IMG/VR virus record: IMGVR_UViG_3300036901_000131
Origin: a virus
Length of the DNA stretch: 61,443 bases
Strand: one strand, 5' to 3'
Shown: positions 13,010 to 54,239 of the stretch, piece by piece
How the letters are laid out: the number at the start of each line of letters is the position of its first letter
How positions within the stretch are numbered: the stretch's first letter is position 1
Notes under the pieces: generated by a model
Told to the model about the DNA's origin: nothing
Databases searched by the model: none
The model's input: the letters and a program-made list of their open reading frames with translations, nothing else
Program-made: the position numbers and the translations under genes

Positions 13010-14206
13010 TCAGTCGTCGGATGGTGTTCCGTAATAGTAGTCATTCCAGAACAAGCCACCAACGAAGTCCCGGACATGGTCGATCCTGGTCTGCGTCGCA
13101 ATGTTGTTGGCCAGACACTGCCGGATCACGGTCACCGGGTCCTGACCATCCCAGATTTTGAACGCCATGCCGCGCTCAAACTTCGGCAGGGATAAGACAA
13201 CCTCAACGGCGAATCGTTTCTTGTCACCGCACTCCTTCGCGCGAGCGACGAACACCGTCAGCATTGCCGCCTTGATCCTGATGCGTCTCTCGAACTCATT
13301 GCTGAAGTCGTCGATGGCCCGCTTGTCCTTGTCATCCATGAACTGCTTCACGTCATCAACCGTCTCATGCAGCACCAGAGCCCAGACATTCTTTTCCAGG
13401 TTCAAGGTATCCTTGGTGCCATGGATGCGGCAGTACAGGAGGGCCTTCGCCTTCACCATATGACCACTGTCGAAGCGCACGACATAGCCTTCGGCGTCCT
13501 CTAGTAATGAGGTCTCGGTTAGGAATCGCTGAATATCCTCGGCTGAGCCGTCCATCGCTCTGACGACAGGAATATGGAAGCGCGCGGCGATCTCGACCAT
13601 CGCGGGATACAGGTGATACTGACCAGAAACGTTGTGCCGGATGCCGGTCAGAGTTAGCTCGTCCTCGGGATAATCCAGCACGATGCGTTGCTTACGAGAT
13701 GTCCACTCGAAGATGGCCGTGAGACCTTCCTCGCGCATCGCCTCACAGAACGGCGCGTAGGCGTCGCCCACGGCGTCGCTGATCGGCTTGGCTACGTCGG
13801 TGGCTCCCATCTTGGTATGCCACTGCCAAGCGCCCTGACGCTTGAACGCGGTGATCATACTTCCATCCCTCTTCTCAAGGACGCGGTGCGGCATTGACCA
13901 GTCAATGATGCCCATCTGGGTCTCTGGTAACTGATTTACATTGAAGAACTTCGCATAAGGTTTTGCCACGACATCCCCTGTGCTGATGTCGAATTTGATG
14001 CCACGGCAATCGCGGCGAAGTACCGCCAGACGATGCGGCAGACCGGCCAACAACATTGGATCGGGAAAGGTCGTGGGACAGGTGAACATGTAGTTGATCA
14101 CCAGGTAGCCATTGACTTCATCACGCTTGATGATGAACTCTTCGCTACCTTCAATGGCCGGGAGATAATCCTGAATGTTGGATGCTGCTTGAAAACGATA
14201 CTTCAT
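13010..14206 (-). CDS. rnlA: RNA ligase 1 (T4 RnlA-like)
   Basis: Aligns by eye to T4 Rnl1 at DCRGIKFDISTG/ECRGIMFEMDG, PYAKFFNVNQ/PMEKFFNLNE and the nucleotidyltransferase motif I lysine (EKRDGSM/TKEDGSL). Length 398 aa against 374. Confidence 0.8.
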   Translation of the reverse strand: MKYRFQAASNIQDYLPAIEGSEEFIIKRDEVNGYLVINYMFTCPTTFPDPMLLAGLPHRLAVLRRDCRGIKFDISTGDVVAKPYAKFFNVNQLPETQMGIIDWSMPHRVLEKRDGSMITAFKRQGAWQWHTKMGATDVAKPISDAVGDAYAPFCEAMREEGLTAIFEWTSRKQRIVLDYPEDELTLTGIRHNVSGQYHLYPAMVEIAARFHIPVVRAMDGSAEDIQRFLTETSLLEDAEGYVVRFDSGHMVKAKALLYCRIHGTKDTLNLEKNVWALVLHETVDDVKQFMDDKDKRAIDDFSNEFERRIRIKAAMLTVFVARAKECGDKKRFAVEVVLSLPKFERGMAFKIWDGQDPVTVIRQCLANNIATQTRIDHVRDFVGGLFWNDYYYGTPSDD

Positions 14207-15225: not shown

Positions 15226-15474
15226 TCATCCGGCGCAACTTTCCAGGGAGTTCATCCGAGCGTCGAGACGATTTTCGACATCGGTGATGTCCTGTTGCAG
15301 GCGATTTTCAAGGTCGTTGATGTCCTGCTGGAGGAGGGATATCTCTTCTTGAAGGCCGGAAACATCCAATTCGAGGTCGCCAATCTTCTCTTGTTGGCGT
15401 GCGTTTTCTTCTTGCAGTTCCTCGAAGTTGTAATTCAGGAATGCAAAATCTTCGATGGTGTCAATTCTATTCAT
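15226..15474 (-). CDS. coiled-coil protein
   Basis: Start trimmed to the internal ATG at 15474 (MNRIDTIEDF…), which lies 2 nt downstream of the VWA-protein stop codon (15467..15469). Heptad-like repeats DINDLENRLQQDITDVENRLD. Confidence 0.35.
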   Translation of the reverse strand: MNRIDTIEDFAFLNYNFEELQEENARQQEKIGDLELDVSGLQEEISLLQQDINDLENRLQQDITDVENRLDARMNSLESCAG

Positions 15475-16711
15475 GAAAAATTTCCTTTGGTTCGTAGTAG
15501 CAAACTTGGCCGTATGATGGCTTGGCACGCGGATTCGAGTGAATGATGAACAGAGTATCACAAAAATCCTCGTCACCCCAATCATCATCGACATAGCCAT
15601 CGGTGAAAATCAGCAATCTGTGCGGCTCGATCTCATGTTCCTTCATGTACTCCCAGCAGCAGGAGGGCACCGTGCCGCCACCGCCACGGAAGGGATAGTC
15701 GTAGATTTCATCCGCGTTATCCGGTGTGAAGGTCATGACATTGTAGACCTCGGTGTCAAAGGTTCCGATGATCAGTTCAAAATCCGCGAACGTGCTGATG
15801 ATGCCAGCGCACTCGGAGAGGAAATCGGTGACCATCTCCTTCGTGGTTGACGCGGAACCATCTAGGAACGCCGCCGCCTTCACTTTCTCCTGGACATCCG
15901 AACCCGGCAGGATGAAACCAGTGGACCAGAACCGGCGTGACAATCGCATGTAAGTGTAGTCATATTTGATCGCTGAGCGCAGTACATTATCCAGCATCTT
16001 CCGCCAATCGATCTTGTGTTCCAGCAGTTTATTGAGCATCCGTAGAATGCCAGCCGGTATTTTGCCGGGATCGACATTGGGTTGTTGCGCCGCCTGAATG
16101 AGCGTGGTGCGAATGTTGTTCCGGATATCCTCCATTTCTTCCGAGGTGAGGACCGGTGGACCATCGCCTTTCTGACCATCGCTGTGCTTGAGGTCTTTCT
16201 GTCCATCTCCACCGCCGTTGCCATCAAGATGCATGTCGAGTGGCATCTGAATCTTGACCTGTTTCCTTTCCAGCAGGGCGTAGAGTTCCTCGGCGCTGAA
16301 ATCATCGGTATAATCCGGATCGAACAATACTCGGACTATCGGTGGCTTGTTTTTGATCTCGCGACCGATCATCTGACCCTGACTGTCCTTGGTGGTCAGT
16401 AAGGTGTAATTCACAAGGTAGTCGATGGCCATCCCCCAAATATCTGGATTTCTGTTGCCGCATCTGAACATGTGGTTAAAAACGCAATGAAGAACTTCAT
16501 GAGCGGTCAACCAGATCAACTCTTCGCGATCCAGTTGCTTGACGAAGTCCCGATTGTAGTAGAAGAACCGGCCATCAGTGGCCGCCGTCAGACACCAGGT
16601 GACTTCCTTCAGTTCGAGATGCAGGATGATGGGGCCGAAGATCGGCCATTCCAACAGCAATCTGACACGGGCTTTTTGGAGTTCAATGAGAACCGGATCG
16701 GTGTTCCTCAA
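15467..16711 (-). CDS. VWA-domain protein with N-terminal HExxH metallopeptidase-like domain (DUF2201/CoxE-like, CobT-like partner of the AAA+ ATPase)
   Basis: WLTAHEVLHCVFNH (HExxH) lies in the N-terminal DUF2201_N-like region with a C-terminal VWA-like region. Start overlaps the MoxR gene stop (ATGA). Confidence 0.65.
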   Translation of the reverse strand: MRNTDPVLIELQKARVRLLLEWPIFGPIILHLELKEVTWCLTAATDGRFFYYNRDFVKQLDREELIWLTAHEVLHCVFNHMFRCGNRNPDIWGMAIDYLVNYTLLTTKDSQGQMIGREIKNKPPIVRVLFDPDYTDDFSAEELYALLERKQVKIQMPLDMHLDGNGGGDGQKDLKHSDGQKGDGPPVLTSEEMEDIRNNIRTTLIQAAQQPNVDPGKIPAGILRMLNKLLEHKIDWRKMLDNVLRSAIKYDYTYMRLSRRFWSTGFILPGSDVQEKVKAAAFLDGSASTTKEMVTDFLSECAGIISTFADFELIIGTFDTEVYNVMTFTPDNADEIYDYPFRGGGGTVPSCCWEYMKEHEIEPHRLLIFTDGYVDDDWGDEDFCDTLFIIHSNPRAKPSYGQVCYYEPKEIFHE

Positions 16712-18072
16712 ATGATCATATCCTTGTACTCTTTGGCGAATTTCTTGAATTCTTCCATGTTCTTCTGATCGAATCGCAACTCATAAATCTTCATGGCCAT
16801 TTTGTGAAACATGATCATGACTTCGGGGGTGAAGTTGCGCAGCGCATACCCGATGGCCCGATCAGCCCGATCAGCCCACTTCTTGCGTTCCGGACTGGAA
16901 TCTATCCGCAGTCTGTCGCCGCGATATTTCTTGTCTACGACATCGGATTCCTTCTTCAGTTCGTATCCCATTTGCACGCATGTCGAATAGGCGATCTGGG
17001 TGCGAAACTTGTTATCCTTGGGATTGAAGGCGGTCACGCTGCCATCGAAAATTCTCTGGACATTCGGCATGTCTTCCATGAATTCACGATGCTGTAGAAA
17101 GGCCGTGCCACCGACATTACCGATGGCTCCGCACACTTCTGGTTTGATGACGTGGGGTGGGCCTGGTTTGCTGACGATCCGGGAGACGAATTCCCATGTG
17201 CGTGGGCTGCGGAAGCTGTTTTCCGGATGGTTGGCAAAATCCTCATCGAACAAATGCGATGTCCATTTCGCGAGATAACCGACCACATCCGAGTGCATGC
17301 CGTTGAGCACCGCCCATTTCTGCCAGTCCTCGTGATTGACCTCCATCTCGATGTGATCGAAGCGATTGGCGACTGGTTTGAGCAGTTTGTAGGTGAGACC
17401 TTTATCACCATCGCGGTTGCCCATGGCGAGGATCATCACGCCATCCGGCACGACGTAATCACCAATGCGTCGATCCAGCACCAATTGGTAGGCAGCCGCC
17501 ATGACGTTGGGTGGGGCCGAGTTGAATTCTTCGAGGCCGAGGATGGCTTCGGATTTTCCGGTGATGGTCCAGAGCACCTTGCCGGAGGTCAGGCGATCAT
17601 CCGCGTCCGTGACGATGACAACGAAATGGTTGGGTTTCTTTTCGATGAGGCGAGCATTCTTGCCAGCCTCGACGGCCTTGACCCTGATATCGGGATTCGT
17701 GCAATATGGTATGCTATTGTTGCCGATGGGATTGTAGAATTTGACAATCTCCGTCTCATGGACATCGACGATCTCGACGAGGTCAAGATCACGTGGGAAA
17801 ACCAATGGTGGGGTCCAGATCAGTCCGCGCATGCCGCCAATGGTTTCCACGAACGGCACGCCACGGATGTCCTCGGGCGCGACCGAGGTCAGACGAAAAT
17901 CGATGAAGGCGATGTCAAGCTCGTCGGCGACCTGGCGGGCGACCGCTGACTTGGAGATGCCTGGCGCACCATGGACATAGAGGGAAATCCCGGTCCCTCG
18001 CATGTGCTTGATGATGTCGGAGACGTATGACGGACGTACTTTATTGAGGGCTAAATCTAAATCTGTTGGCAT
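16708..18072 (-). CDS. MoxR/CobS-like AAA+ ATPase
   Basis: Walker A motif LYVHGAPGISKSAVARQVA. AAA_5/MoxR-like architecture of 454 aa. Paired with the VWA protein. Confidence 0.75.
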   Translation of the reverse strand: MPTDLDLALNKVRPSYVSDIIKHMRGTGISLYVHGAPGISKSAVARQVADELDIAFIDFRLTSVAPEDIRGVPFVETIGGMRGLIWTPPLVFPRDLDLVEIVDVHETEIVKFYNPIGNNSIPYCTNPDIRVKAVEAGKNARLIEKKPNHFVVIVTDADDRLTSGKVLWTITGKSEAILGLEEFNSAPPNVMAAAYQLVLDRRIGDYVVPDGVMILAMGNRDGDKGLTYKLLKPVANRFDHIEMEVNHEDWQKWAVLNGMHSDVVGYLAKWTSHLFDEDFANHPENSFRSPRTWEFVSRIVSKPGPPHVIKPEVCGAIGNVGGTAFLQHREFMEDMPNVQRIFDGSVTAFNPKDNKFRTQIAYSTCVQMGYELKKESDVVDKKYRGDRLRIDSSPERKKWADRADRAIGYALRNFTPEVMIMFHKMAMKIYELRFDQKNMEEFKKFAKEYKDMII

Positions 18073-18841: not shown

Positions 18842-19162
18842 TTAGATCGACTCTGGACTGACCAATAAGGGATATTCGTGCTGTCTGGCCAACGCATTCG
18901 TCATGTCGGCCTTATGACTGGCAACCTCGAAGGTATAACTGCCGACCCTGGCCTTACCCTCCCGATGAATCTTCAACATCGTGACAGTCGCGTCATCCAG
19001 TGACAGATTGAAAATACTGATCAAAACTTGGACGACGAACTGCATAGCTGTGAAGTCGTCGTTAAGAATGATGACGCAGTACATCGGTGGTCGCTTGTGT
19101 TTTGGTTTGGTGAGCGTCCTGCCGTCTTCGTTTATATCACCGAAATATTCATGGATTGTCAT
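18842..19162 (-). CDS. clpS: ATP-dependent Clp protease adaptor ClpS
   Basis: KPPMYCVIILNDDFTAMQFVVQVLISIFNL…LKIHREGKARVGSYTFEVAS aligns with E. coli ClpS ([28 protein letters not shown]…[20 protein letters not shown]). Confidence 0.8.
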   Translation of the reverse strand: MTIHEYFGDINEDGRTLTKPKHKRPPMYCVIILNDDFTAMQFVVQVLISIFNLSLDDATVTMLKIHREGKARVGSYTFEVASHKADMTNALARQHEYPLLVSPESI

Positions 19163-19584
19163 TGTGGTTTCCTAATCGTATCTGATTTATCCAGGTAGTC
19201 GAACCAAAAGTCTTTGCCGTTGTCGCTTGGTATCAACCTGTAATAGATGTCATGATCGTATTCGGCGTCCGTGCTGGATGTGCCACCGCCCCCCGCAACG
19301 GAGTCGTTCGTATTGCCGCCATTGGTGTCGTTGGTATCATCTGGACCAAAGCCTTTGATGCTGGCCGCGCACATCCTGATCAACCCGTTGGTGTCCAGTG
19401 TGGTGACCGTATCCTCGTCGATTTCCACCCTGTTGGGTGCCCAATCGTCATTATTTCCCCATTGCCAGTCCGATTTCAACAAATCTTTGATGAATGTCAT
19501 GACCTTTGGTGCGTTGCACGGCATGGGTTGAGCATGCGCGGTCGTGATGAACAAGGAAAGCAGAACTCCGCCGAGGATTTTCAT
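19159..19584 (-). CDS. secreted hypothetical protein (signal peptide)
   Basis: MKILGGVLLSLFITTAHAQP leader. Start overlaps the clpS stop. Confidence 0.45.
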   Translation of the reverse strand: MKILGGVLLSLFITTAHAQPMPCNAPKVMTFIKDLLKSDWQWGNNDDWAPNRVEIDEDTVTTLDTNGLIRMCAASIKGFGPDDTNDTNGGNTNDSVAGGGGTSSTDAEYDHDIYYRLIPSDNGKDFWFDYLDKSDTIRKPQ

Positions 19585-19629
19585 GATTGACTTCCAAAAT
19601 CCGAAAGTACCTTTCCCGTCAGTGAAAAA

Positions 19630-20058
19630 TCAAGCTGAAATTTGGATTTCCTTCGCTTTCTGGATGTCTGGAATCTGTCGGATCAGGTCAATTTCCAATA
19701 GTCCGTGTTCCAATTTGGCGGATTCGACGATCACGTGTTCGCCGATCATGAATTCGCGAGAAAAATCCCGATACGCTATGCCTCGATAGAGAATCACATG
19801 TTCGGGTTCGACGAGGCCATCAATCGCTATTTGCGAGGGCGTTTCCTTGCTGCCACGAATGGTCAGAAGTTCGCCTTGCAGGATGATGCTGAGATCAGTT
19901 CGGGTGAATCCGGCCACCGCCAGGGTCAGGCGGTATTTATCCTTGCCGATATGCGTGATGTTGTGCGGCGGGAATTTGTTCGCCGCGTTGCGTTCGAAAA
20001 ATCGTGGGTCGAGGCCAACACTATGTTTTAACACAGTGTCCATGGCGTTAGCGTTCAT
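19630..20058 (-). CDS. ibpA: small heat-shock protein, Hsp20/alpha-crystallin family (IbpA-like)
   Basis: YRLTLAVAGFTRTDLSIILQGELLTIRG…LYRGIAYRDFSREF…LEHGLLEIDLIRQIP aligns with E. coli IbpA ([28 protein letters not shown]…LYQGIAERNFERKF…LVNGLLYIDLERVIP). Start set at MNANAM (20058), preceded by AGGAGGTG. The ORF track extends to 20103. Confidence 0.8.
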   Translation of the reverse strand: MNANAMDTVLKHSVGLDPRFFERNAANKFPPHNITHIGKDKYRLTLAVAGFTRTDLSIILQGELLTIRGSKETPSQIAIDGLVEPEHVILYRGIAYRDFSREFMIGEHVIVESAKLEHGLLEIDLIRQIPDIQKAKEIQISA

Positions 20059-20205
20059 TGTATCACCTCCTAAAAGCGAAGTTTCGGCCCTGCGTTCAGG
20101 CACCGAACGAATATTTATTCAAAATACATAGTTCGCTGTGCTTGCGACCAGACGCGATCCGTCGTATGATGAGACTTCGTTGCTCGAACTATAAGGGATA
20201 TCCTC

Positions 20206-20817
20206 ATGCCGTTGGACGTAGCAGGCTTCCCGATTCAGGTGTCATCGCTGACTGATGTTCTGAAGTCGCTTGGCATCGCGCCCATACCGCGCGAAGTTCT
20301 CGCCCGACACAAGAAATCGGAAATCAAGAAACACCCCGCGCACTGGGCCGCGCCGATCCTTCACCTCTATCGTGACTCGGTCGCTTACATAGGCACGGCT
20401 TTCGTGTGCAGCATCGTCGCGGCCATCGTGGTCTTCACCTATGACCTGGTGACCTGGCATCTACTGCTGGGAACCATCCTGGGGCCGATTCTGATGTTCG
20501 TCTTGCCGATACTCATGTTGTTCGGCATGGTCGTACTCGATGGCATACGGATAAGTGTCAAGGATAAAGCCGAATGGGTCGAGAGCAAGGCCATCCTGCG
20601 TGGCACGGACAACATTCCGTGTGAGATCGCGAACCTCGGCAAGGCCATTCTCAAGGAGCAGCCCACCGCCGCCTTCGTCAAAGGCACGCTGGTGCAGAAC
20701 AATGTCACCCTCGATCCCTATCTGATCGTCAAGGATGGCGCTGATGAAGCGGTTCTGGGCATCTGGGATGACAACGGCATCCTGCTGATCGCCGCTCGAC
20801 CCGCTCACTTTCGATAA
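20206..20817 (+). CDS. membrane protein (2-3 TM helices), hypothetical
   Basis: 203 aa with hydrophobic segments (AYIGTAFVCSIVAAIVVF, LLLGTILGPILMFVLPILMLFGMVVL). Confidence 0.45.
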   Translation: MPLDVAGFPIQVSSLTDVLKSLGIAPIPREVLARHKKSEIKKHPAHWAAPILHLYRDSVAYIGTAFVCSIVAAIVVFTYDLVTWHLLLGTILGPILMFVLPILMLFGMVVLDGIRISVKDKAEWVESKAILRGTDNIPCEIANLGKAILKEQPTAAFVKGTLVQNNVTLDPYLIVKDGADEAVLGIWDDNGILLIAARPAHFR

Positions 20818-20855
20818 TCCAGTGAAAACAGGGGCATTTTTTGCCCCTGTTTTTG

Positions 20856-21437
20856 TCAGGCTTTGGCGGCTTTCATCAGATCAGCTTTGGAGATCATCGG
20901 CGCGAGGATGATCGTCATGTCGGCGTCGCCGTCAGACAACGATCTGTCGATCTTGTGATCGCCAATCGCGTGCAGGAACCGTTCGACGATTTGTCTGCCC
21001 CAGTCCCGGTGGGTGCGTTCCCGGCCTCGGAATCTCACCACCACTTTCACCTTGTCACCTTCGTCGAGGAAGCCTCTGGCGCGTTTCACCTTGATCATCA
21101 TGTCATTGTCGTTGGTGACAGGGCGCAGTTGAATTTCCTTGGTATCCACCATCATCTCGCGTTGACGTTTGGCCAATTCCTTTTCGGTTTTTTTCTTCTC
21201 GAAGCGGAATCGATCCGCGTCCAGCACCCGACAGATCGGCGGATCGGAGTCAGTCGCCCCAGGAGCCACCACGACAAGGTCAAGACCTTGGTTGCGGGCC
21301 TTTGAGAGCGCATCATGAAATGAGAAAATACCAAGTTGCCGGTCACCGTCGAGGAGACGTACCGTGCGAGCACGAATGTGCTCATTAATGACGAAATCAG
21401 TAGCCAAGTGTAAACCACATGTGTTGAAAAAATCCAA
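20856..21437 (-). CDS. infC: translation initiation factor IF-3
   Basis: INEHIRARTVRLLDGDRQLGIFSFHDA…PPICRVLD…TKEIQLRPVTNDNDMMIKVKRARGFLDEGDKVKVVVRFRGRE…MTIILAP aligns along its full length with E. coli IF-3 (INGEIRAQEVRLTG…PPVCRIMD…[20 protein letters not shown]…ITLRFRGRE…MIMVLAP). Confidence 0.85.
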   Translation of the reverse strand: MDFFNTCGLHLATDFVINEHIRARTVRLLDGDRQLGIFSFHDALSKARNQGLDLVVVAPGATDSDPPICRVLDADRFRFEKKKTEKELAKRQREMMVDTKEIQLRPVTNDNDMMIKVKRARGFLDEGDKVKVVVRFRGRERTHRDWGRQIVERFLHAIGDHKIDRSLSDGDADMTIILAPMISKADLMKAAKA

Positions 21438-21595
21438 TGAGAATGAAATTATTTATATACCATACATAACAATTGCATGTCTAAGGCTAATTTTTCTGAC
21501 AGTTGACATCCGGTCGGCCATCGGTAATCATGGCAGCGCTCTTTGAACCGTGCATCGCCTCTCCTGTCGTCCGCCCTACCGGGCGGATTCGGCTG

Positions 21596-22221
21596 TCCTC
21601 GGATGGCTTCAAAAAACGCGGGTAAGACGCGAGTATACGCACGGCCAAATGGTCACGAAAAATGTAACATGGCGCTGAACATCTCGGTTATCCTGAGGTT
21701 TGGATGGCCACGAAAATATCAGTATAAAAGCCATGTCTCGGCTATCCTCTGGATGGCCACGAAAACTAGCGCGGCACTAGGTTGCTTTTCCCTTGGTTAT
21801 CGCGAGATGGCCACGCAAAAACTTATGACTTCATACACGGCTTGATGGCCACGAAAATGAAAGGAATGCTTTGGATGATTTGGCTATCCTAGTCGGATGG
21901 CTATGAAAACGAATGGTCGAACACTGCGGGTCTCATTTTGGCCACGGAAAATAGTAGGCCGCAGCCTGGCTGTGAGGCGACTGTCCGGTTATCCTGACTT
22001 TTGGATGGCCACGAAAACAGCGTGATTTCACCGTTGCCGACTGGGCCGAGGTCTACGAAAACACCTTTGGACCGTGGGCGAGTCGGCTATCCCGTTTTGG
22101 GATGGCCACGAAAATACCAAGACACATCCCACATGTGTTTGAAGGCTATCATTCCATGATGGCCACGAAAATTATCCTGCTTCCGAGGCATACCAGAATC
22201 GGCCATCATTTTGGCTATCAG
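21596..22221. repeat. array of at least 10 degenerate direct repeats: GGYTATCC-N3-8-GGATGGCC-ACGAAAAY units separated by unique 22-33 bp spacers
   Basis: Core GGATGGCCACGAAAAY or close variants start near 21647, 21702, 21751, 21804, 21843, 21895, 21939, 22002, 22049, 22100 and 22158 (about 40-63 bp apart). Most copies carry an upstream GGYTATCC forming an 8-bp imperfect inverted repeat with GGATGGCC, whose only non-Watson-Crick positions are T.G on the plus strand. All copies share one orientation and lie between two minus-strand genes. Confidence 0.6.
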
Positions 22222-23099
22222 ACGAAGAAATCGTTGTCCACGAACATGCCGCAGGATGCCTTTACGGAAAAACCAACGCGAGGCACGATCTTGCTCCTGA
22301 CGGAGAGGCGCTCCTTGATGATCGCCAGATTTTTCTGGATCACCGGCTCCGGACTTTCGCGACTTTTCTCATTGGGCGGATTGTAGCGCACGAGGTTCAC
22401 CCGCACGTTCAGACCATACTGTTCCACCGCGTCACAGATCGCCTGCACATCGGCCTCCCGGTCATTCTCGCCGTCGATGAACGCCCAGTGCAGCACGATC
22501 TCCCGCTTCTGGGATTTCTGCCACTCGGACAACAGATCGAGGCCGTGGCCGACCGGCAGAGCCCTCGGCAGCCAGCGTTTGCGGAATTTCTCGTTCATGC
22601 TGTAGATGGAATAATAGAACTCGACCGGAGAGCCGCCGAACGCCTGTACCAGGGTGTAGCGGAAGTCCTGTGGCATGATGGTCGAGATGTTGAATTTGGC
22701 GCGTAGCCCCCTCTGGCGGGCCATGCAGGACAGACAGCCGATGATCTCCTGATTGTCCTCCAGCAGATGCGGGTTCGACAGCGCCTCGCCACGTGACATC
22801 CAGTTGACGTGCACTGAATCAGCATGGCCCTGATCATCCGCGACGGCGTCATAATAGGTCAGTACCTGCAAGGCTTGTTCGAGATACAAATCCATGTCAA
22901 CCGGCTCGAACGAAGTCTGCCCGGTGGCGGTGAGATGACACATGCGACAGGCATGCTTGCAGCCGGTGTGTGATGACAGGTAGACGATGAAGTAATCGTC
23001 CGTGCGTCGAACATAGCGGGTTTCGATGTAGCCTTCCTTCATCTGGCGGATGAAATTGACCGATCTGTCCTCATCGGACTTGAGAATGTTCCATTTCAT
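22218..23099 (-). CDS. radical SAM enzyme, RlmN/Cfr-like (short form)
   Basis: GCKHACRMCHL is the CxxxCxxC radical-SAM cluster motif. The C-terminal VNLVRYNPPNE…GFSVKASCGMFV resembles RlmN/Cfr (NLIPFNP…AACGQL, with the conserved C-terminal Cys). At 293 aa it lacks the RlmN N-terminal domain. Confidence 0.55.
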   Translation of the reverse strand: MKWNILKSDEDRSVNFIRQMKEGYIETRYVRRTDDYFIVYLSSHTGCKHACRMCHLTATGQTSFEPVDMDLYLEQALQVLTYYDAVADDQGHADSVHVNWMSRGEALSNPHLLEDNQEIIGCLSCMARQRGLRAKFNISTIMPQDFRYTLVQAFGGSPVEFYYSIYSMNEKFRKRWLPRALPVGHGLDLLSEWQKSQKREIVLHWAFIDGENDREADVQAICDAVEQYGLNVRVNLVRYNPPNEKSRESPEPVIQKNLAIIKERLSVRSKIVPRVGFSVKASCGMFVDNDFFV

Positions 23100-23623
23100 G
23101 AATAATCAAACTCAAACAATTCGTTCATCTTCCTCAAATCGTCGACGTGACAGCAAAAACGATCCCCAAATCGGAAGTTGCGTTTTGGCAACTCAATGAG
23201 ATCGTCATGCACGTACCAGCCGACAAGATCGAAGGCGGTTTCTATCGAGCCGCGCACGACCACGTAGATGTTGGCCCAGCGTTGCGGCTCATGCGGATTG
23301 ACGATCAGGTTGCCGGTCAGACGAGGGCCTGCGCCATCCATGCCAAGATGGATGACTTCCACGGTCATGCCGTGGAAGGTGAAATCCGATCCACCGTCAC
23401 CATGCGTGTCATAAATCTCTGAGTTGAACTTCTGTTGGAACGCGTCCGCCGCGAATTTTTCCGCCTCGTATGCCTGCCGGTCGGTCTGCGCGCTGGTCCG
23501 GCTGCCGTCCTTGCGAATGTCGGAAATGCCAGCGTCTCTTTTAGCGTGATACCGTTCACTCCCGTCCGTCATAGGAATTTTCCCTGACATGCATGTCACG
23601 AATAGTATTACGCAAACCAGCAC
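23096..23623 (-). CDS. hypothetical protein (start uncertain, possibly an internal ATG)
   Basis: 175-aa ORF. The N-terminal hydrophobic stretch may be spurious. Overlaps the downstream gene by 4 nt. Confidence 0.35.
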   Translation of the reverse strand: MLVCVILFVTCMSGKIPMTDGSERYHAKRDAGISDIRKDGSRTSAQTDRQAYEAEKFAADAFQQKFNSEIYDTHGDGGSDFTFHGMTVEVIHLGMDGAGPRLTGNLIVNPHEPQRWANIYVVVRGSIETAFDLVGWYVHDDLIELPKRNFRFGDRFCCHVDDLRKMNELFEFDYS

Positions 23624-23738
23624 GTTGTTGTTTCATGAACCTATAAAGCAACAAGCCTACCTGAGTGCGGCATGAATCATCATCTGCCAAACCTTCTCGC
23701 AGCACATCGGCGATGAGTTCTATCTCCATGTCGGTCAT
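23556..23738 (-). CDS. hypothetical small protein
   Basis: 60-aa ORF, coupled (4-nt overlaps) with its neighbours. Confidence 0.3.
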   Translation of the reverse strand: MTDMEIELIADVLREGLADDDSCRTQVGLLLYRFMKQQRAGLRNTIRDMHVRENSYDGRE

Positions 23739-23992
23739 GTCATCTCCACCAGACCGGCGAGCGAAAATTCGGTCAGGTCCATGTGAATGGCCAGTACCTT
23801 GATGCGCTGAATGGTCTCTTTCGGTACTGGTTTCCCACTCAGGATATCGGCCAGGGTCTCCAACGCGATCTCAAACTCCCGATGATCACACCAGTAATCG
23901 ACTTCCGCCTTTTCCTCGACGGATAAGTCACAACTTGTCATCAACGCCTCGAATATCCGCTCTGTCTCGGACCATGTAAAATCATCAGTCAT
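23735..23992 (-). CDS. hypothetical acidic protein
   Basis: 85-aa ORF. Confidence 0.35.
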   Translation of the reverse strand: MTDDFTWSETERIFEALMTSCDLSVEEKAEVDYWCDHREFEIALETLADILSGKPVPKETIQRIKVLAIHMDLTEFSLAGLVEMT

Positions 23993-24003
23993 GTAATACT
24001 ATC

Positions 24004-25242
24004 CTACGAAGTTGCCGCAATCGCCTTATATACGACATCGGGTTCCGTGCCGTCAACAATCGTGGCTTTCCGTACGATGATTTCAGAGATGCCCTTCGCT
24101 TTCATGTCAGGCAGATCGAATTGTGTCCGCAACAGTCTGGATTCGAGGACACTGCGCAGGGCGCGTCCATTGGTCTTGCGCGTGCGTGCCAGCCTGGCGA
24201 CCGCCTGCAAGGCATCGGCATCGAATGTCAGGTCAATCCCGTCCAATGCGAACATCTTTGAATATTGCTTGATCAGGGCGTTTTTTGGCTCGGTGAGAAT
24301 GCGCACCAGTTGATCCTCATCGAGTTCGTCCAGCATGGTGATCACCGGCACGCGTCCGATCAATTCCGGGATCAAACCAAATTTGATCAGATGTTCCGGC
24401 TCCACGCGACGGAACGAATCCTTGGATTGTATTTTTTGTTTGTCGACCTTCGCACCATAGCCGATGCTGGTCTCTTCCTGTTCGAGGATTTTATCCAGGC
24501 CGACGAAGGCTCCGCCCAGGATGAACAGGATGTTGTGGGTGTTGACCTTCACGAGGTCAGCGTTCGGGCCGCGCCGGTTGCCCGATGCCACCATGGTCTC
24601 GGTACCTTCCAGGAGCTTCAGGAGAGCCTGTTGGACACCTTCGCCGGTCACATCCTTGTTGGATGATCCGGTGACCTCGCGGCTGCGCTTCTTGTCGATC
24701 TCGTCGAGGAAGATGATGCCTCGCTCGGCTTTCTTCACGTCGTTGTCAGCGGCCTGAAGCAGGCGTGAGATGATGCTCTCGACATCATCACCAACGTATC
24801 CGGCCTCGGTCAACGAGGTGGTATCGACGATGGTGAGTGGAACATCCAACATGCGGGCGATGGATTTCGCCAGCAGGGTCTTACCAACCCCGGTCTGGCC
24901 GATCATCAGAATGTTTGATTTGTCGATCTCGATGCCGTCGATGACGGGATTTTCGAGTCTCTTGTAGTGGTTGTAGACGGCGACGGAGAGGACTTCCTTG
25001 GTATGGTTCTGACCGATCACATACTGGTCGAGATAGTCCTTGATCTCTCTGGGGTAAGGTGTGGTCGACTTGGTTTTGGTCAGAATGACTTTGTCTTTTT
25101 CATAACTGTTGAGAACTTCTGTGCATTTCCCAACACATTCATCACAGATGAATCCAGTTTCTCCCTGAATTAATCGCTTAACTTTCTGGGAAGATTTTGA
25201 ACAAAATGAACACTTAAGCAGCTTTTGAGAATTAGCCATCAT
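24004..25242 (-). CDS. clpX: ATP-dependent Clp protease ATP-binding subunit ClpX
   Basis: N-terminal zinc-binding domain (LLKCSFCSKSSQKVKRLIQGETGFICDECVGKC versus E. coli [33 protein letters not shown]). Walker A motif GQTGVGKTLLAKSIARML. Start moved to MMANSQ (25242), preceded by GGAAGG. The track's 25302 start adds 20 unlikely residues. Confidence 0.85.
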   Translation of the reverse strand: MMANSQKLLKCSFCSKSSQKVKRLIQGETGFICDECVGKCTEVLNSYEKDKVILTKTKSTTPYPREIKDYLDQYVIGQNHTKEVLSVAVYNHYKRLENPVIDGIEIDKSNILMIGQTGVGKTLLAKSIARMLDVPLTIVDTTSLTEAGYVGDDVESIISRLLQAADNDVKKAERGIIFLDEIDKKRSREVTGSSNKDVTGEGVQQALLKLLEGTETMVASGNRRGPNADLVKVNTHNILFILGGAFVGLDKILEQEETSIGYGAKVDKQKIQSKDSFRRVEPEHLIKFGLIPELIGRVPVITMLDELDEDQLVRILTEPKNALIKQYSKMFALDGIDLTFDADALQAVARLARTRKTNGRALRSVLESRLLRTQFDLPDMKAKGISEIIVRKATIVDGTEPDVVYKAIAATS

Positions 25243-25298
25243 GAAAAAAAGCCTTCCACAGGACCTTATATTTATGTGCGAAACGAAAAGTTCAAATA

Positions 25299-44422: not shown

Positions 44423-44820
44423 ATTTGGGGAGTTAGACCTCCCCTTTTCAGCTTTTTCCAGTCCAGTTCCCACATTACGATGAGGTGATAGCCTAGCGAT
44501 CTACATGAACAACGGCTGCCTCAGACAGAAATTGCAGGGTCGTTTTTCTACTGTGGTTATTGGCGGTCATAGCTCCGCACCGCTTACACCCTTTGCCCTT
44601 AAGATGTGATCTTGGCTGCTGAGGTATGACGCCGTGAATTGGGCATCCAACATAGATTATTTCCTGTGACCCTCTGTACACTGACATGCTATAGTCATAT
44701 CTAGTTCCATGCACAATCATGGCCGACTCTATGAATTTCTGTGTCGTTAATTTTAAGCCCATTGACTTTCTCACATACTGTGAAAGTATACACGAGATGA
44801 AAGGCGGAGTGGAGGACATT

Positions 44821-45984
44821 ATGCGTGCAGTTGCTGTCATCGGAGCCAACTTTGGTGATGAGGGGAAAGGTCTAATTACCGATTATCTCTCTACACCAAC
44901 AAGTATGGTTGTAAGGTCGAGCGGCGGTAGTAATGCAGGACATACAGTCGTCAGGGATGGCAAGCGGCATATCTTTCGTCATGTCGGCAGCGGCGCGCTG
45001 AAAGGAGCCGCTACCTTCCTGTCGGAATATTTCATCAACAACCCGATCCTGTATTTCAAGGAGCTTGAAATTCTCAAAGGGATCGGTGTCGAACCGCTGG
45101 TGTTCGCCGATCCTGGTGGTATGGTGACGACACCATGGGACATGATGATCAACACTATCCTGGAGGAAAGTCGCGGCGGACATCGACACGGCAGTTGTGG
45201 CGTTGGCATCAATGAAACGATGAAACGAAACACGGGCTTTCATCCGTTTCGGGTCATCCATCTGTTCGACGCGAGGAACATTTGCCGATACATCATGAGC
45301 GATTATGTTCCGAATCGCCTGCGGGAGCTTGAGCTTGAGCCGTCGCCGGTCTGGCGGGAACGACTGACCTCACATCACATTCTCGACGCATTCGTTGAGG
45401 AGTGTGAACAATACCTCAAATCGATTCACATCACATCGCTCAAACAGGCCATCGTCATGAACGGCTCCGACGACATCGTGTTCGAGGGGGCGCAGGGATT
45501 GTTGCTGGATCAGGACCACTATTGGTTCCCCCACGTCACGCATTCCAAGACCGGATTGCATAACGTGTTGGAGATCGCGAAGCAGAATGACGGAATCGGC
45601 GAGATCGCCGTGGTATATGTCTCGCGCGCTTATGCCACGCGACATGGAGCCGGTCCCTTTCCGAGGGAACATTTGTCCTTGTCATATGAGGATGAGACCA
45701 ACGTGCCCAACCGTTGGCAGGGTTCGCTTCGTTTCGGTCATCTCGACCTGAGTTTGCTGGCGCAATCCATTCGCCATGATCTTTGGGCATTCCAAGGAAA
45801 ACCGATACTGGCGATGACCTGTCTCGATCAGGTGGCCGATCCAGTCGAATTCTGGCAGGACGGCATGCTGCAAAGCGAACCCAGAGTCGTCATGGTACGA
45901 CGCGCCTGCGCGTCAATCGAGGCGAAGCAATCACTGATCAGTTTCGGCCCATCGGCCAAGGATGTAATTCCCTTCAAATATTGA
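44821..45984 (+). CDS. purA: adenylosuccinate synthetase homolog (PurA family; candidate PurZ-like)
   Basis: AVIGANFGDEGKGLITDYL and VVRSSGGSNAGHTVV align with E. coli PurA GTQWGDEGKGKIVDLL and VVRYQGGHNAGHTLV, with His replaced by Ser. GSCGVGINETMKR matches the IGTTGRGIGPAYEDK region. Start set at MRAV (44821), preceded by GGAGTGGAGGA. Confidence 0.8.
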   Translation: MRAVAVIGANFGDEGKGLITDYLSTPTSMVVRSSGGSNAGHTVVRDGKRHIFRHVGSGALKGAATFLSEYFINNPILYFKELEILKGIGVEPLVFADPGGMVTTPWDMMINTILEESRGGHRHGSCGVGINETMKRNTGFHPFRVIHLFDARNICRYIMSDYVPNRLRELELEPSPVWRERLTSHHILDAFVEECEQYLKSIHITSLKQAIVMNGSDDIVFEGAQGLLLDQDHYWFPHVTHSKTGLHNVLEIAKQNDGIGEIAVVYVSRAYATRHGAGPFPREHLSLSYEDETNVPNRWQGSLRFGHLDLSLLAQSIRHDLWAFQGKPILAMTCLDQVADPVEFWQDGMLQSEPRVVMVRRACASIEAKQSLISFGPSAKDVIPFKY

Positions 45985-54084: not shown

Positions 54085-54156
54085 AGCTGGCGGATGGATT
54101 CGAACCCTCGACACTCTCGTAGGCACCGAGAAACTCTACCTCTGAGTTACACCAGC
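54085..54156 (-). tRNA. tRNA, anticodon GCC (Gly) by hand folding; atypical
   Basis: Minus-strand read GCTGGTG-TA-ACTC-AGAGGTA-GAGT-T-TCTCG-GTGCCTA-CGAGA-GTGTC-GAGGG-TTCGAAT-CCATC-CGCCAGC. The 7-bp acceptor has one G.U. D and anticodon stems pair, with U33 and anticodon GCC. The T-stem has one mismatch and position 37 is U. No CCA is encoded. Confidence 0.45.
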
Positions 54157-54164
54157 AGAGGTAA

Positions 54165-54239
54165 TGGAGCGGATAGACGGAAATCGAACCGTCGTCCTCA
54201 GCTTGGAAGGCTGTGGCTCTACCATTGAGCTATATCCGC
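54165..54239 (-). tRNA. tRNA-Gly (anticodon UCC), CCA encoded
   Basis: Minus-strand read GCGGATA-TA-GCTC-AATGGTA-GAGC-C-ACAGC-CTTCCAA-GCTGA-GGAC-GACGG-TTCGATTT-CCGTC-TATCCGC-T-CCA. Perfect acceptor and D stems. The anticodon loop CUUCCAA and adjoining sequence closely resemble E. coli tRNA-Gly(UCC) (CAGCCTTCCAAGCTGA, GGTTCGATT). The T-loop is 8 nt as folded. Confidence 0.55.

What the first reader, a model, noticed from the sequence alone, without database searches (positions are those of the whole stretch)
22218..23099. Short RlmN/Cfr-like radical SAM enzyme next to the repeat array
The enzyme carries the CxxxCxxC cluster motif and the RlmN/Cfr C-terminal Cys region, but at 293 aa it lacks the N-terminal substrate-recognition domain. 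RlmN methylates A2503 of 23S rRNA and A37 of tRNAs, and Cfr-type methylation confers multi-drug resistance. A phage copy could reprogram host ribosomes or tRNA. Its position abutting the hairpin-repeat island invites the idea that the repeats are its RNA substrates.
Basis: partly seen in the sequence, partly recalled or inferred. Interest (0 to 1): 0.5.

Follow-up and report, generated by a model that had tools for sequence, protein, structure and literature searches.

The report
Truncated RlmN/Cfr-like enzyme lacking resolving cysteine
This phage gene encodes a short relative of the RNA-methylating enzymes RlmN and Cfr, from a large unstudied family that keeps the methyl-carrying cysteine but always has tyrosine in place of the second catalytic cysteine, so it probably modifies a nucleic acid by altered chemistry and has no link to the neighbouring repeats.

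Summary
The ORF at 22218..23099 (-) is real and encodes 293 aa. Its only specific relatives by sequence profile and by fold are RlmN and Cfr. It is not an ortholog of either: it scores about 47 bits against curated cut-offs of 290-550.

It keeps the CxxxCxxC cluster motif (C47/C51/C54), the SAM and 5'-dA pocket, Glu26 and the C-terminal loop cysteine (C283 = RlmN C355 / Cfr C338). It lacks the N-terminal domain. The resolving cysteine (RlmN C118 / Cfr C105) is Tyr40, and Tyr holds that position in all 120 close homologs and 150/150 sequences in the second, more diverse set.

The family (PHROG 27142) has at least 434 clusters at 50% identity. It occurs in jumbo phages (201phi2-1 gp434, CcrColossus, Brevundimonas phages), T4-like metagenomic phages, megaplasmids, and Planctomycetota and Myxococcota. 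I found no paper that characterises it.

In this phage lineage the conserved gene order is ClpX, an 85-aa gene, the radical SAM gene, IF3. In several other phage lineages the gene lies in or near tRNA gene arrays.

The repeat array is not linked to the enzyme. Relatives with 77% identical enzymes lack it. Similar arrays occur elsewhere without the enzyme. The hairpins fold on the opposite strand.

Best reading: a non-canonical class-A radical SAM enzyme acting on a nucleic-acid base, most likely in tRNA or rRNA. The target is not proven.

The parts
22218..23099 (-). Gene for a 293-aa single-domain radical SAM enzyme of the RlmN/Cfr (class A methylase) superfamily, PHROG 27142
   Evidence: ORF; PHROG 27142 E 8.5e-101; NCBIfam RlmN/Cfr models E about 1e-12 but 47 bits against cut-offs of 290-550; a family profile hits only Cfr and RlmN in the PDB; AF2 model pLDDT 91, best Foldseek hits RlmN with TM 0.75
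22938..22961 (-). CxxxCxxC [4Fe-4S]/SAM cluster motif (C47, C51, C54)
   Evidence: Translation YLSSHTGCKHACRMC; aligned with RlmN C125/C129/C132 and Cfr C112/C116/C119; conserved in 98-100% of 120 homologs and in 150/150 sequences of the second set
22980..22982 (-). Tyr40, at the position of the resolving cysteine RlmN C118 / Cfr C105
   Evidence: Ungapped alignment FIVYLSSHTGC against TLCVSSQVGC (RlmN) and SFCISSQCGC (Cfr); Tyr in 120/120 homologs and in 150/150 sequences of the second set; the RlmN sequence was verified from MG1655
22251..22253 (-). Cys283 in the flexible C-terminal loop ASCGMF, equivalent to the methyl-carrying RlmN C355 / Cfr C338
   Evidence: Translation KASCGMF; alignments; invariant together with G284; the loop has low pLDDT in the model, and the equivalent Cfr segment is unresolved in its crystal structure (PMC12887959)
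23735..25302 (-). Upstream same-strand genes conserved with the enzyme in this phage lineage: ClpX homolog (24004..25302) and an 85-aa protein (23735..23992)
   Evidence: Pfam zf-C4_ClpX and AAA_2; the order ClpX, 85 aa, radical SAM, IF3 is conserved in L157 and L158
20856..21437 (-). Downstream same-strand translation initiation factor IF3 gene, the conserved neighbour of the enzyme in this lineage
   Evidence: Pfam IF3_N and IF3_C; it lies 95 bp after the enzyme gene in L157/L158 and downstream in L159

Best explanation
The gene encodes a stand-alone catalytic core of the RlmN/Cfr type, from a large uncharacterised sister family. 

Shown: the iron-sulfur/SAM site, the 5'-deoxyadenosine pocket, Glu26 (RlmN E105 / Cfr E91) and the mobile C-terminal cysteine are conserved. 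The N-terminal RNA-binding domain is missing, and the second catalytic cysteine is always tyrosine. 

Inferred: like RlmN and Cfr, the enzyme first methylates Cys283 from one SAM. It then cleaves a second SAM to a 5'-deoxyadenosyl radical. That radical turns the S-methyl group into a methylene radical, which adds to an sp2 carbon of a base. The resulting enzyme-substrate thioether cannot be released by the usual Cys118 route, so release must use another residue or a different chemistry. Tyr40 is the obvious candidate, acting as a proton or hydrogen-atom relay. 

The most likely target is a base in tRNA or rRNA of the infected cell or of the phage's own tRNAs. The enzyme would therefore belong to the phage's translation and proteostasis module. 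It has no functional link to the adjacent repeat array.
For: - Homology is specific to RlmN/Cfr. NCBIfam gives RlmN/Cfr models at E about 1e-12 and nothing else better than 0.02. The family profile hits only Cfr and RlmN in the PDB, at 2e-19 to 9e-11. Foldseek ranks RlmN and Cfr as the first 11 hits, with TM up to 0.75.
- Catalytic inventory: the C47/C51/C54 cluster. The residues Cfr F118/C119/M155/I290/C338/G339 (the 5'-dA pocket per PMC12887959) map to F/M53, C54, M101, V237, C283 and G284, all conserved. Cfr E91, S189 and S212 map to invariant E26, S139 and S164.
- Tyr40 and Cys283 are invariant in the 120 homologs and in 150/150 sequences of the second set.
- RNA or translation context: the order ClpX, 85 aa, radical SAM, IF3 is conserved in the lineage. 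tRNA genes lie within 8 kb in 14 of 73 phage loci, all on the same strand, and in L098 the gene sits inside a 22-tRNA array. An RNase II/R gene lies 45 bp downstream on a Pseudomonas megaplasmid. A CCA-adding enzyme gene lies about 2.5 kb away in CcrPW. An AbiEii nucleotidyltransferase gene is divergently upstream in the bacterial locus annotated by Pfam, and an AbiEii-type ORF recurs in several others.
Against: - No experiment exists for any member (literature searches found none).
- Cfr C105A is inactive and leaves an RT stop without methylation (PMC2836569), so a natural Cys-to-Tyr enzyme may not be a turnover methylase at all.
- Residues around the target base in the Cfr-rRNA model differ here, and the replacements are fixed across the family: M95 to V30, Y97 to R32, W101 to Y36, H214 to Y166. 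The substrate may therefore differ.
- The domain thought to bind RNA is absent, and the pI of about 6.5 is not basic.
- Neighbours are heterogeneous: 196 neighbour clusters in 76 loci. Many are DNA recombination or nucleotide-metabolism genes, such as UvsX/UvsY, gp46/47-like, RNR and dUTPase.
- The tRNA proximity (91 tRNAs per 1.07 Mb) was not tested against a proper null.
Confidence: 0.5

Rival explanations
1. It is a functional RlmN or Cfr ortholog that makes m2A or m8A at 23S rRNA A2503 (and A37 of tRNA) by the canonical two-cysteine mechanism, for example to reprogram ribosomes or make them drug resistant.
For: Sources annotate homologs as '23S rRNA (adenine2503-C2)-methyltransferase' or 'RlmN'. 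The best database relatives are RlmN and Cfr.
Against: It scores 45-48 bits against equivalog cut-offs of 290-550. The resolving Cys is replaced by an invariant Tyr. Cfr C105A abolishes resistance and methylation (PMC2836569). The N-terminal domain is missing. The base-pocket residues are changed. Identity to Cfr(D) is only 24.5%.
Confidence: 0.08
2. It acts on DNA or on a free (deoxy)nucleotide rather than RNA, either as a base C-methylation or other modification of phage DNA or its precursors, or as a radical repair reaction that uses Cys283 and Tyr40 as a hydrogen-atom relay.
For: In T4-like metagenomic phages the gene lies between UvsX and UvsY, or directly after gp47/gp46-like nuclease genes. 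Neighbours in other loci include RNR, dUTPase, dCMP deaminase, an AlkB-like oxygenase, cytidylyltransferase-like genes and MutT. There is no RNA-binding N-terminal domain. The family-specific invariant residues R28, R32, H204 and R238 would suit a phosphate-bearing small substrate. A Cys plus Tyr pair is the radical relay used by spore photoproduct lyase (my own knowledge; a different fold).
Against: Conserved core genes are common landmarks in T4-like genomes, so adjacency is weak evidence. No consistent nucleotide-metabolism partner was found. The closest characterised homologs act on RNA. I know of no C-methyladenine or comparable modification reported for the cultured host phages; this point comes from my own knowledge and was not checked.
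Confidence: 0.2
3. It modifies a protein or peptide, either as a conflict-system effector maturase as proposed for the radical SAM gene of FtsH ternary systems, or as a glycyl-radical-enzyme activase.
For: In one Polyangiales genome the homolog precedes a second radical SAM gene and an FtsH/fvmX/MoxR ternary system. Kaur et al. 2020 predicted that the radical SAM of such systems modifies a peptide effector (PMC7159879). PFL-activating enzyme is the next-best fold. A distant phage relative, Klebsiella phage 05F01 gene_104, sits next to NrdD.
Against: The FtsH system is adjacent in only one of 75 bacterial loci (L001 and L012 are the same genome). PFL-AE similarity is far weaker than RlmN/Cfr similarity. 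The invariant C-terminal Cys-Gly loop is an RlmN/Cfr hallmark that activases do not have. PADLOC gives no hit. No conserved small-peptide neighbour occurs across lineages.
Confidence: 0.07
4. Transcripts of the adjacent hairpin-repeat array (about 21596..22175) are the enzyme's RNA substrates, and the two form one module.
For: Physical adjacency in this window only.
Against: L157 and L158, whose enzymes are 77% identical, have 95 bp and no array at that place. The motif is absent from all 159 related loci. Arrays of the same hairpin type occur in L189 and L195 next to unrelated genes; no window ORF of 80 aa or more, the enzyme included, has a detectable homolog there. The hairpin strand is opposite to the gene.
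Confidence: 0.03

Closest known systems
RlmN (E. coli b2517; dual-specificity 23S rRNA A2503 / tRNA A37 C2-methyltransferase; PDB 3RFA, 5HR7)
   Same: Same radical SAM core fold (TM 0.74-0.75). Same CxxxCxxC motif and the GE motif (MxRGE against MGMGE). E105 corresponds to E26, N312 to N240, and the C-terminal loop Cys355-Gly356 to C283-G284.
   Different: Only 15-18% identity. The protein lacks residues 1 to about 75 (the N-terminal domain). C118 is replaced by an invariant Tyr. Many pocket residues are fixed to other amino acids: V107 to R28, H235 to Y166, E278 to H204, P310 to R238. It scores 47 bits against a cut-off of 290.
Cfr (23S rRNA A2503 C8-methyltransferase; PDB 9P0P; Cfr(D) on Enterococcus plasmids)
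   Same: Best PDB sequence match (profile E 2.3e-19). The 5'-dA/SAM pocket and C338 are conserved.
   Different: 24.5% identity to Cfr(D). C105 is replaced by Tyr. There is no N-terminal domain. Residues near A2503 are changed. It scores 46-48 bits against cut-offs of 468-550. There is no evidence of antibiotic resistance.
PHROG 27142 / Pseudomonas phage 201phi2-1 gp434 (UniProt B3FJU2), Caulobacter phage CcrColossus and CcrPW gp289, Brevundimonas jumbo phage homologs
   Same: True family members: 43-49% identity over the full length, TM 0.93 to the 201phi2-1 model, and the same Tyr/Cys signature.
   Different: None is characterised. They are annotated inconsistently as hypothetical, Fe-S-cluster redox, RlmN or methyltransferase. 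Their gene neighbourhoods differ from the window.
Other short phage RlmN-like clades (Tunturiibacter phage Tunturi_5 gp170; Klebsiella phage 05F01 gene_104; IMG/VR loci L153 and L156)
   Same: Short, single-domain, with the cluster motif and the C-terminal SCGMF/ACGMF cysteine loop.
   Different: 21-25% identity. Tunturi_5 keeps the Cys at the C118 position. 05F01, L153 and L156 have Val or Ile there, and 05F01 and L153 also lose the E105 equivalent.
Radical SAM component of FtsH ternary (vWA-MoxR) conflict systems (Kaur, Burroughs, Iyer, Aravind 2020)
   Same: One Polyangiales homolog lies directly upstream of such a system.
   Different: The association is seen in a single genome of 75. In bacteria the recurrent neighbour is a divergently transcribed LRR protein, present in 34 loci; an AbiEii nucleotidyltransferase gene accompanies it in the Pfam-annotated Polyangiales locus and in several others.

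Membership tests
RlmN (TIGR00048 equivalog) | Whole-protein HMM score at or above the curated cut-off (290 bits) | tested here: not met
   47.3 bits, E 1.3e-12, aligned to model positions 76-342 of 355
RlmN / Cfr (class A radical SAM methylases) | CxxxCxxC motif binding the [4Fe-4S]/SAM cluster | tested here: met
   C47/C51/C54 align with RlmN C125/129/132 and Cfr C112/116/119
RlmN / Cfr (class A radical SAM methylases) | Methyl-carrying cysteine in the C-terminal loop (RlmN C355, Cfr C338) | tested here: met
   C283-G284 in ASCGMF, invariant in the 120 homologs and in 150/150 sequences of the second set. Whether it is actually methylated cannot be tested here.
RlmN / Cfr (class A radical SAM methylases) | Second, resolving cysteine seven residues before the cluster motif (RlmN C118, Cfr C105), needed to release the product | tested here: not met
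   Tyr40 at that position, with Tyr in all 120 homologs and in 150/150 sequences of the second set. No other conserved Cys in the family. Cfr C105A is inactive (PMC2836569).
RlmN / Cfr (class A radical SAM methylases) | N-terminal helical accessory domain implicated in RNA binding | tested here: not met
   The protein starts at the equivalent of RlmN residue about 80 and Cfr about 65-90. The longer family members carry unrelated N-terminal extensions with no recognisable domain.
RlmN / Cfr (class A radical SAM methylases) | C2 or C8 methylation of A2503 in 23S rRNA, or of A37 in tRNA | not testable with these tools
   Needs enzymology or nucleoside mass spectrometry.
Cfr (TIGR04432, NF000424, NF011024) | HMM score at or above the curated cut-offs (468-550 bits) | tested here: not met
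   45.4-47.6 bits
RlmN/Cfr superfamily (homology and fold) | RlmN and Cfr are the closest solved structures by both sequence profile and fold | tested here: met
   The profile hits only Cfr and RlmN chains. Foldseek ranks 1-11 are RlmN or Cfr, E 2.5e-13 to 9e-10, followed by PFL-AE at 1.5e-7.
PHROG 27142 ('Fe-S-cluster redox domain-containing') | Full-length HMM match | tested here: met
   E 8.5e-101, residues 6-287 against profile positions 9-299 of 300
   PFLA TIGR02493 gives E 0.021 and 14 bits against a cut-off of 232. No QueE hit.
Known anti-phage defence proteins (PADLOC) | Match to a PADLOC model | tested here: not met
   Only PDC-S02 at E 0.024 and 12.6 bits

The most novel reading that the evidence does not exclude
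This is a widespread natural lineage of class-A radical SAM enzymes that has dispensed with the resolving cysteine. It would therefore carry out a chemistry not yet described for this class. There are three options: tyrosine-assisted release of a C-methylated base, a deliberate long-lived covalent enzyme-nucleic-acid thioether (the state trapped artificially in RlmN C118A), or a Cys/Tyr hydrogen-atom relay for a non-methylating radical reaction. Jumbo phages, megaplasmids and some multicellular-type bacteria would use it on tRNA, ribosomes or nucleotides during conflict.
Probability: 0.3. Interest if true: 0.7.

Novelty: new variant of a known kind. Interest (0 to 1): 0.5.

Why it matters
RlmN and Cfr are the only characterised class-A radical SAM methylases. 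Their two-cysteine ping-pong mechanism is a textbook case, and Cfr is a clinically important resistance enzyme.

This family has hundreds of sequence clusters and sits in well-studied model jumbo phages such as 201phi2-1, Phabio and CcrColossus. It keeps the methyl-carrying cysteine but has fixed a tyrosine where the product-releasing cysteine should be. It therefore either extends the known chemistry of the class or marks a new substrate.

The finding also warns against the automatic annotation '23S rRNA (adenine2503-C2)-methyltransferase' that public sources give these genes. If the target is tRNA or rRNA, this would be a phage-encoded C-methylation of the translation apparatus, encoded next to a phage IF3.

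Tried and rejected
- Domain fusions as a clue to function. The few longer family members (357-497 aa) carry heterogeneous N-terminal extensions with no Pfam domain, probably mis-called starts.
- A link to FtsH ternary conflict systems. It holds in a single genome only.
- Defence-system libraries give no hit.
- A conserved partner gene. Clustering about 2900 neighbour ORFs from 157 loci, followed by a Pfam census of 100 neighbour representatives, found no universal partner.
- The 175-aa ORF that overlaps the enzyme's start (23096..23623). It has no family and no homolog in any locus, and it is absent in the closest relatives, so it is an insertion rather than a partner.
- Rfam on the repeat array gives only sub-threshold noise.
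- A search for the array motif in IMG/VR returned 24 single chance hits and no array.
- A metagenome scan for paired motifs returned 8 contigs. Four (L191, L193, L194, L196) are AT-rich 40-bp tandem repeats; in L191, the one inspected, they lie upstream of a eukaryotic PsbO-like gene. These were a false lead. L189 and L195 are genuine arrays of the same type; L190 and L192 carry 4 and 2 motif copies but were not inspected.
- Suspected PurZ (Z-genome) gene at 44719..45984. It keeps the PurA-type GDEGKG motif and scores 48.9 bits against a cut-off of 300 on the PurZ model, so it was not pursued.
- The afdb50 fold library was unavailable.
- Literature searches for any characterised member found nothing.
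Full report
**Observation**

The window has an ORF at exactly 22218..23099 on the minus strand. It encodes 293 aa and starts at an ATG that overlaps the stop codon of the upstream ORF (ATGA). Residues 47-54 read C-KHA-C-RM-C (22938..22961). The C-terminus reads KASCGMF (22242..22262).

**What it is related to**

- Pfam sees only a weak generic Radical_SAM match, 14.9 bits.
- NCBIfam places it nearest RlmN and Cfr, at E about 1e-12. It scores only 45-48 bits where the curated equivalog cut-offs are 290-550, and it aligns only to model positions about 76-342.
- The next families, PFL activase and others, are at E 0.02 or worse.
- A profile built from 42 homologs hits nothing in the PDB except Cfr (2.3e-19) and RlmN chains (about 1e-11).
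- An AlphaFold2 model is confident (pLDDT 91.1, pTM 0.88), with only the C-terminal loop disordered.
- Foldseek against the PDB ranks RlmN and Cfr in positions 1-11 (E 2.5e-13 to 9e-10, TM up to 0.75). PFL-activating enzyme (1.5e-7) and viperin follow.

The protein belongs to the RlmN/Cfr superfamily but is an ortholog of neither.

I aligned the 120 best database homologs with E. coli RlmN. The RlmN sequence was taken from MG1655 b2517 and verified.

- The cluster cysteines and Cys283 (= RlmN C355) are invariant.
- The position of RlmN C118 is Tyr40 in 120 of 120 sequences.
- The local alignment is ungapped and anchored by the shared SS..GC motif: FIVYLSSHTGC against TLCVSSQVGC in RlmN and SFCISSQCGC in Cfr.
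- A second, more diverse set gives the same result: 149 representatives at 50% identity, aligned together with the window protein. Y40, C283, G284, E26, R28 and H204 are each 150/150.
- No other cysteine is conserved in the family.
- In Cfr, C105A (the C118 equivalent) and C338A both abolish resistance. C105A leaves a reverse-transcriptase stop without methylation (PMC2836569). From my own knowledge, RlmN C118A/S traps a covalent enzyme-RNA intermediate.

The family therefore keeps the half of the machinery that makes and activates the S-methyl group and lacks the residue that releases the product.

**Active-site mapping**

I used the residue lists in the 2026 Cfr structure paper (PMC12887959) and mapped them onto this family.

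- The 5'-deoxyadenosine/SAM pocket is retained: Cfr F118, C119, M155, I290, C338 and G339 correspond to F/M53, C54, M101, V237, C283 and G284. Cfr E91, S189 and S212 correspond to E26, S139 and S164.
- Residues within 5 Å of A2503 in the Cfr-rRNA model are replaced by different, family-invariant residues: M95 to V30, Y97 to R32, W101 to Y36, C105 to Y40. Cfr H214, a predicted SAM1-site residue in PMC2836569, is likewise replaced by invariant Y166.

This points to the same cofactor chemistry with a different or differently held substrate.

**Size and spread of the family**

- PHROG 27142 matches at 8.5e-101.
- The word-indexed search found 2056 homologs.
- An exhaustive profile search of 1.84 billion cluster representatives found 434 at E 1e-30 or better and 1447 at 1e-10 or better.
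- Cultured carriers are jumbo phages: Pseudomonas phages 201phi2-1 (gp434), Phabio, Psa21, D6, RVTF4 and Viktualia; Caulobacter phages CcrColossus and CcrPW; and nine Brevundimonas phages. Identity is 43-49%.
- The family also occurs on megaplasmids of 0.27-1.3 Mb, including pMPPla107.
- It occurs in chromosomes or MAGs, mostly of Planctomycetota and Myxococcota.
- IMG/VR gave 74 further loci.
- Public annotations vary: hypothetical, 'Fe-S-cluster redox', 'RlmN', 'radical SAM enzyme, Cfr family'.
- I found no paper that characterises a member.
- Other, more distant short RlmN-like clades exist in phages. Tunturi_5 gp170 keeps the Cys. Klebsiella phage 05F01 gene_104 and loci L153 and L156 have Val or Ile. 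Loss of the resolving Cys with retention of the C-terminal Cys is therefore recurrent in phage-borne versions.

**Genomic context**

The closest relatives have enzymes 77% and 64% identical. They show the gene order ClpX, 85-aa protein, radical SAM, IF3, followed by Hsp20 and ClpS. The window has the same order with two insertions: a 175-aa orphan ORF upstream, and about 780 bp of non-coding repeats between the enzyme gene and IF3.

Contexts elsewhere are heterogeneous.

- In T4-like metagenomic phages the order is UvsX, radical SAM, a 77-aa gene, UvsY, or gp47-like, an unknown gene, gp46-like, radical SAM.
- In one huge phage, a cytidylyltransferase-like gene overlaps downstream and a Ro60/TROVE gene lies upstream.
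- On one megaplasmid, an RNase II/R gene lies 45 bp downstream.
- In 34 bacterial loci, an LRR protein is divergently transcribed upstream. The Polyangiales locus with Pfam annotation adds AbiEii nucleotidyltransferase and sulfatase genes; AbiEii-type, sulfotransferase-like and sulfatase-position ORFs recur in smaller subsets.
- The FtsH ternary conflict system next to one Polyangiales homolog is a single-genome coincidence.
- No universal partner emerged from clustering about 2900 neighbour ORFs or from a Pfam census of 100 neighbour representatives.
- tRNA genes lie within 8 kb in 14 of 73 phage loci, always on the enzyme's strand. In L098 the gene is embedded in a 22-tRNA array. This is suggestive and was not tested against a null.

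**The repeat array**

Between about 21596 and 22175 there are 11-12 units of (C)GGYTATCC, a 3-8 nt loop, then GGATGGCCACGAAAA, spaced 38-67 bp apart. The 14-mer occurs 9 times in the window where 0.68 is expected.

- The stems need one or two G.U pairs, which exist only in + strand RNA. The + strand folds are more stable than the - strand folds in all four units tested.
- A sigma-70-like site (TTGACA, 17 nt, AATCAT) lies just upstream on the + strand at 21503..21531.
- No Rfam family matches.
- The array is absent at the same place in L157 and L158, and the motif is absent from all 159 related loci fetched by then.
- Arrays of the same hairpin type occur in other metagenome contigs. In L195 the array lies between a DNA methylase gene and a helicase-like gene. 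No window ORF of 80 aa or more, the enzyme included, has a homolog in those contigs.

The array is an independent, recurrent element of unknown function. It is not a partner of the enzyme.

**Mechanism**

Shown: cofactor-binding residues, the mobile Cys loop and Glu26 are conserved. The resolving Cys and the N-terminal domain are absent.

Inferred: SAM methylates Cys283. A second SAM gives the 5'-deoxyadenosyl radical. That radical abstracts hydrogen from the S-methyl group, and the resulting methylene radical adds to an sp2 carbon of a base. Release of the thioether adduct must then proceed without Cys118. Tyr40 could act as a proton or hydrogen-atom relay, or the adduct could persist.

The target is most likely a base in tRNA or rRNA. 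The reasons are homology, the IF3 synteny, the tRNA-array contexts, and the RNase R, CCA-adding enzyme and AbiEii neighbours. I put this at about 0.5. DNA or free-nucleotide substrates stand at about 0.2, protein substrates at about 0.07, and a canonical RlmN/Cfr function at about 0.08.

**Verdict**

- The 'RlmN/Cfr-like' call is right at superfamily level and wrong at ortholog level.
- The repeat-substrate idea is not supported.
- The finding is a new variant of a known kind: a large, uncharacterised, mostly mobile-element-borne sister family of the class-A radical SAM methylases with a fixed Cys-to-Tyr change at a catalytic position.
- Interest is moderate (0.5). The family is mechanistically intriguing and present in tractable model phages, but its function is unproven, and the family is already catalogued without its signature having been noted.

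Noticed in passing
window 21596..22175 (+ strand); also L189:1-560 and L195:1150-1800(-): An array of 11-12 degenerate units, GGYTATCC, a 3-8 nt loop, then GGATGGCCACGAAAA, spaced 38-67 bp apart. The stems need G.U pairs that exist only on the + strand. A sigma-70-like site lies upstream at 21503..21531. No Rfam match. Arrays of the same type occur in unrelated metagenome contigs; in L195 the array lies between a DNA methylase gene and a helicase-like gene. Function unknown.
   Followed up: partly
window 23096..23623 (-) and 23556..23738 (-): A 175-aa ORF whose stop overlaps the enzyme's start, plus a 60-aa ORF. Neither is present in the closest relatives L157/L158, where the 85-aa gene abuts the enzyme gene. 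The 175-aa ORF has no Pfam, NCBIfam or PADLOC hit. Neither ORF has a homolog in any fetched locus. This is a lineage-specific insertion.
   Followed up: partly
window 18842..25302 (-): A phage-encoded proteostasis and translation block: ClpS (18842..19162), Hsp20 (19630..20103), IF3 (20856..21437) and ClpX with its zinc finger (24004..25302). It is syntenic in L157 and L159.
   Followed up: partly
window 44719..45984 (+): A divergent adenylosuccinate synthase-like gene (phrog_1211; PurA models at about 144 bits against a cut-off of 402). The PurA-type GDEGKG motif is kept, and the PurZ model scores 48.9 bits against a cut-off of 300. It is probably not a Z-genome PurZ, but this is unresolved.
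   Followed up: partly
window 13010..14206 (-); 54085..54239 (-): A T4 Rnl1-type RNA ligase (phrog_562; TIGR02308 at 121 bits, below the cut-off) and two tRNA-Gly genes (GCC, UCC). These suggest that the phage handles tRNA damage and supply.
   Followed up: no
window 15467..18072 (-); 27291..30056 (-): A MoxR-like ATPase gene followed by a DUF2201/vWA-like gene. PHROG labels the second 'HNH endonuclease', but its L157 homolog has Pfam DUF2201. There is also a 921-aa protein with no PHROG hit whose L157 homolog carries a vault MVP_shoulder domain.
   Followed up: no
L098:1-16843 (IMG/VR 3300036851_000252); L002; L129; L140: In several unrelated large phages the family member lies inside or beside large tRNA gene arrays. 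In L098 it sits between tRNA-Arg and tRNA-Phe within a run of 22 tRNAs, all on the same strand.
   Followed up: partly
L001/L012 and 33 further bacterial loci (e.g. L048, L016, L034): In Planctomycetota and Myxococcota the family member is divergently paired with an operon encoding an LRR protein (34 loci). The Pfam-annotated Polyangiales locus also has AbiEii nucleotidyltransferase and sulfatase genes; AbiEii-type, sulfotransferase-like and sulfatase-position ORFs recur in smaller subsets. This is a conserved and undescribed gene neighbourhood.
   Followed up: partly
L197:2938-3867 (Klebsiella phage 05F01 gene_104); L198:2980-3978 (Tunturi_5 gp170): More distant short RlmN-like phage proteins. 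05F01 gene_104 has Val at the C118 position and Lys at the E105 position, and it lies directly upstream of NrdD. Tunturi_5 gp170 keeps both catalytic cysteines.
   Followed up: partly
L191:3340-3660, L193, L194, L196: AT-rich 40-bp tandem repeats that contain the same 14-mer GATGGCCACGAAAA. In L191, the one inspected, they lie upstream of a PsbO-like gene in what looks like eukaryotic (algal or moss) DNA. The sequence overlap with the phage array appears to be coincidental.
   Followed up: partly
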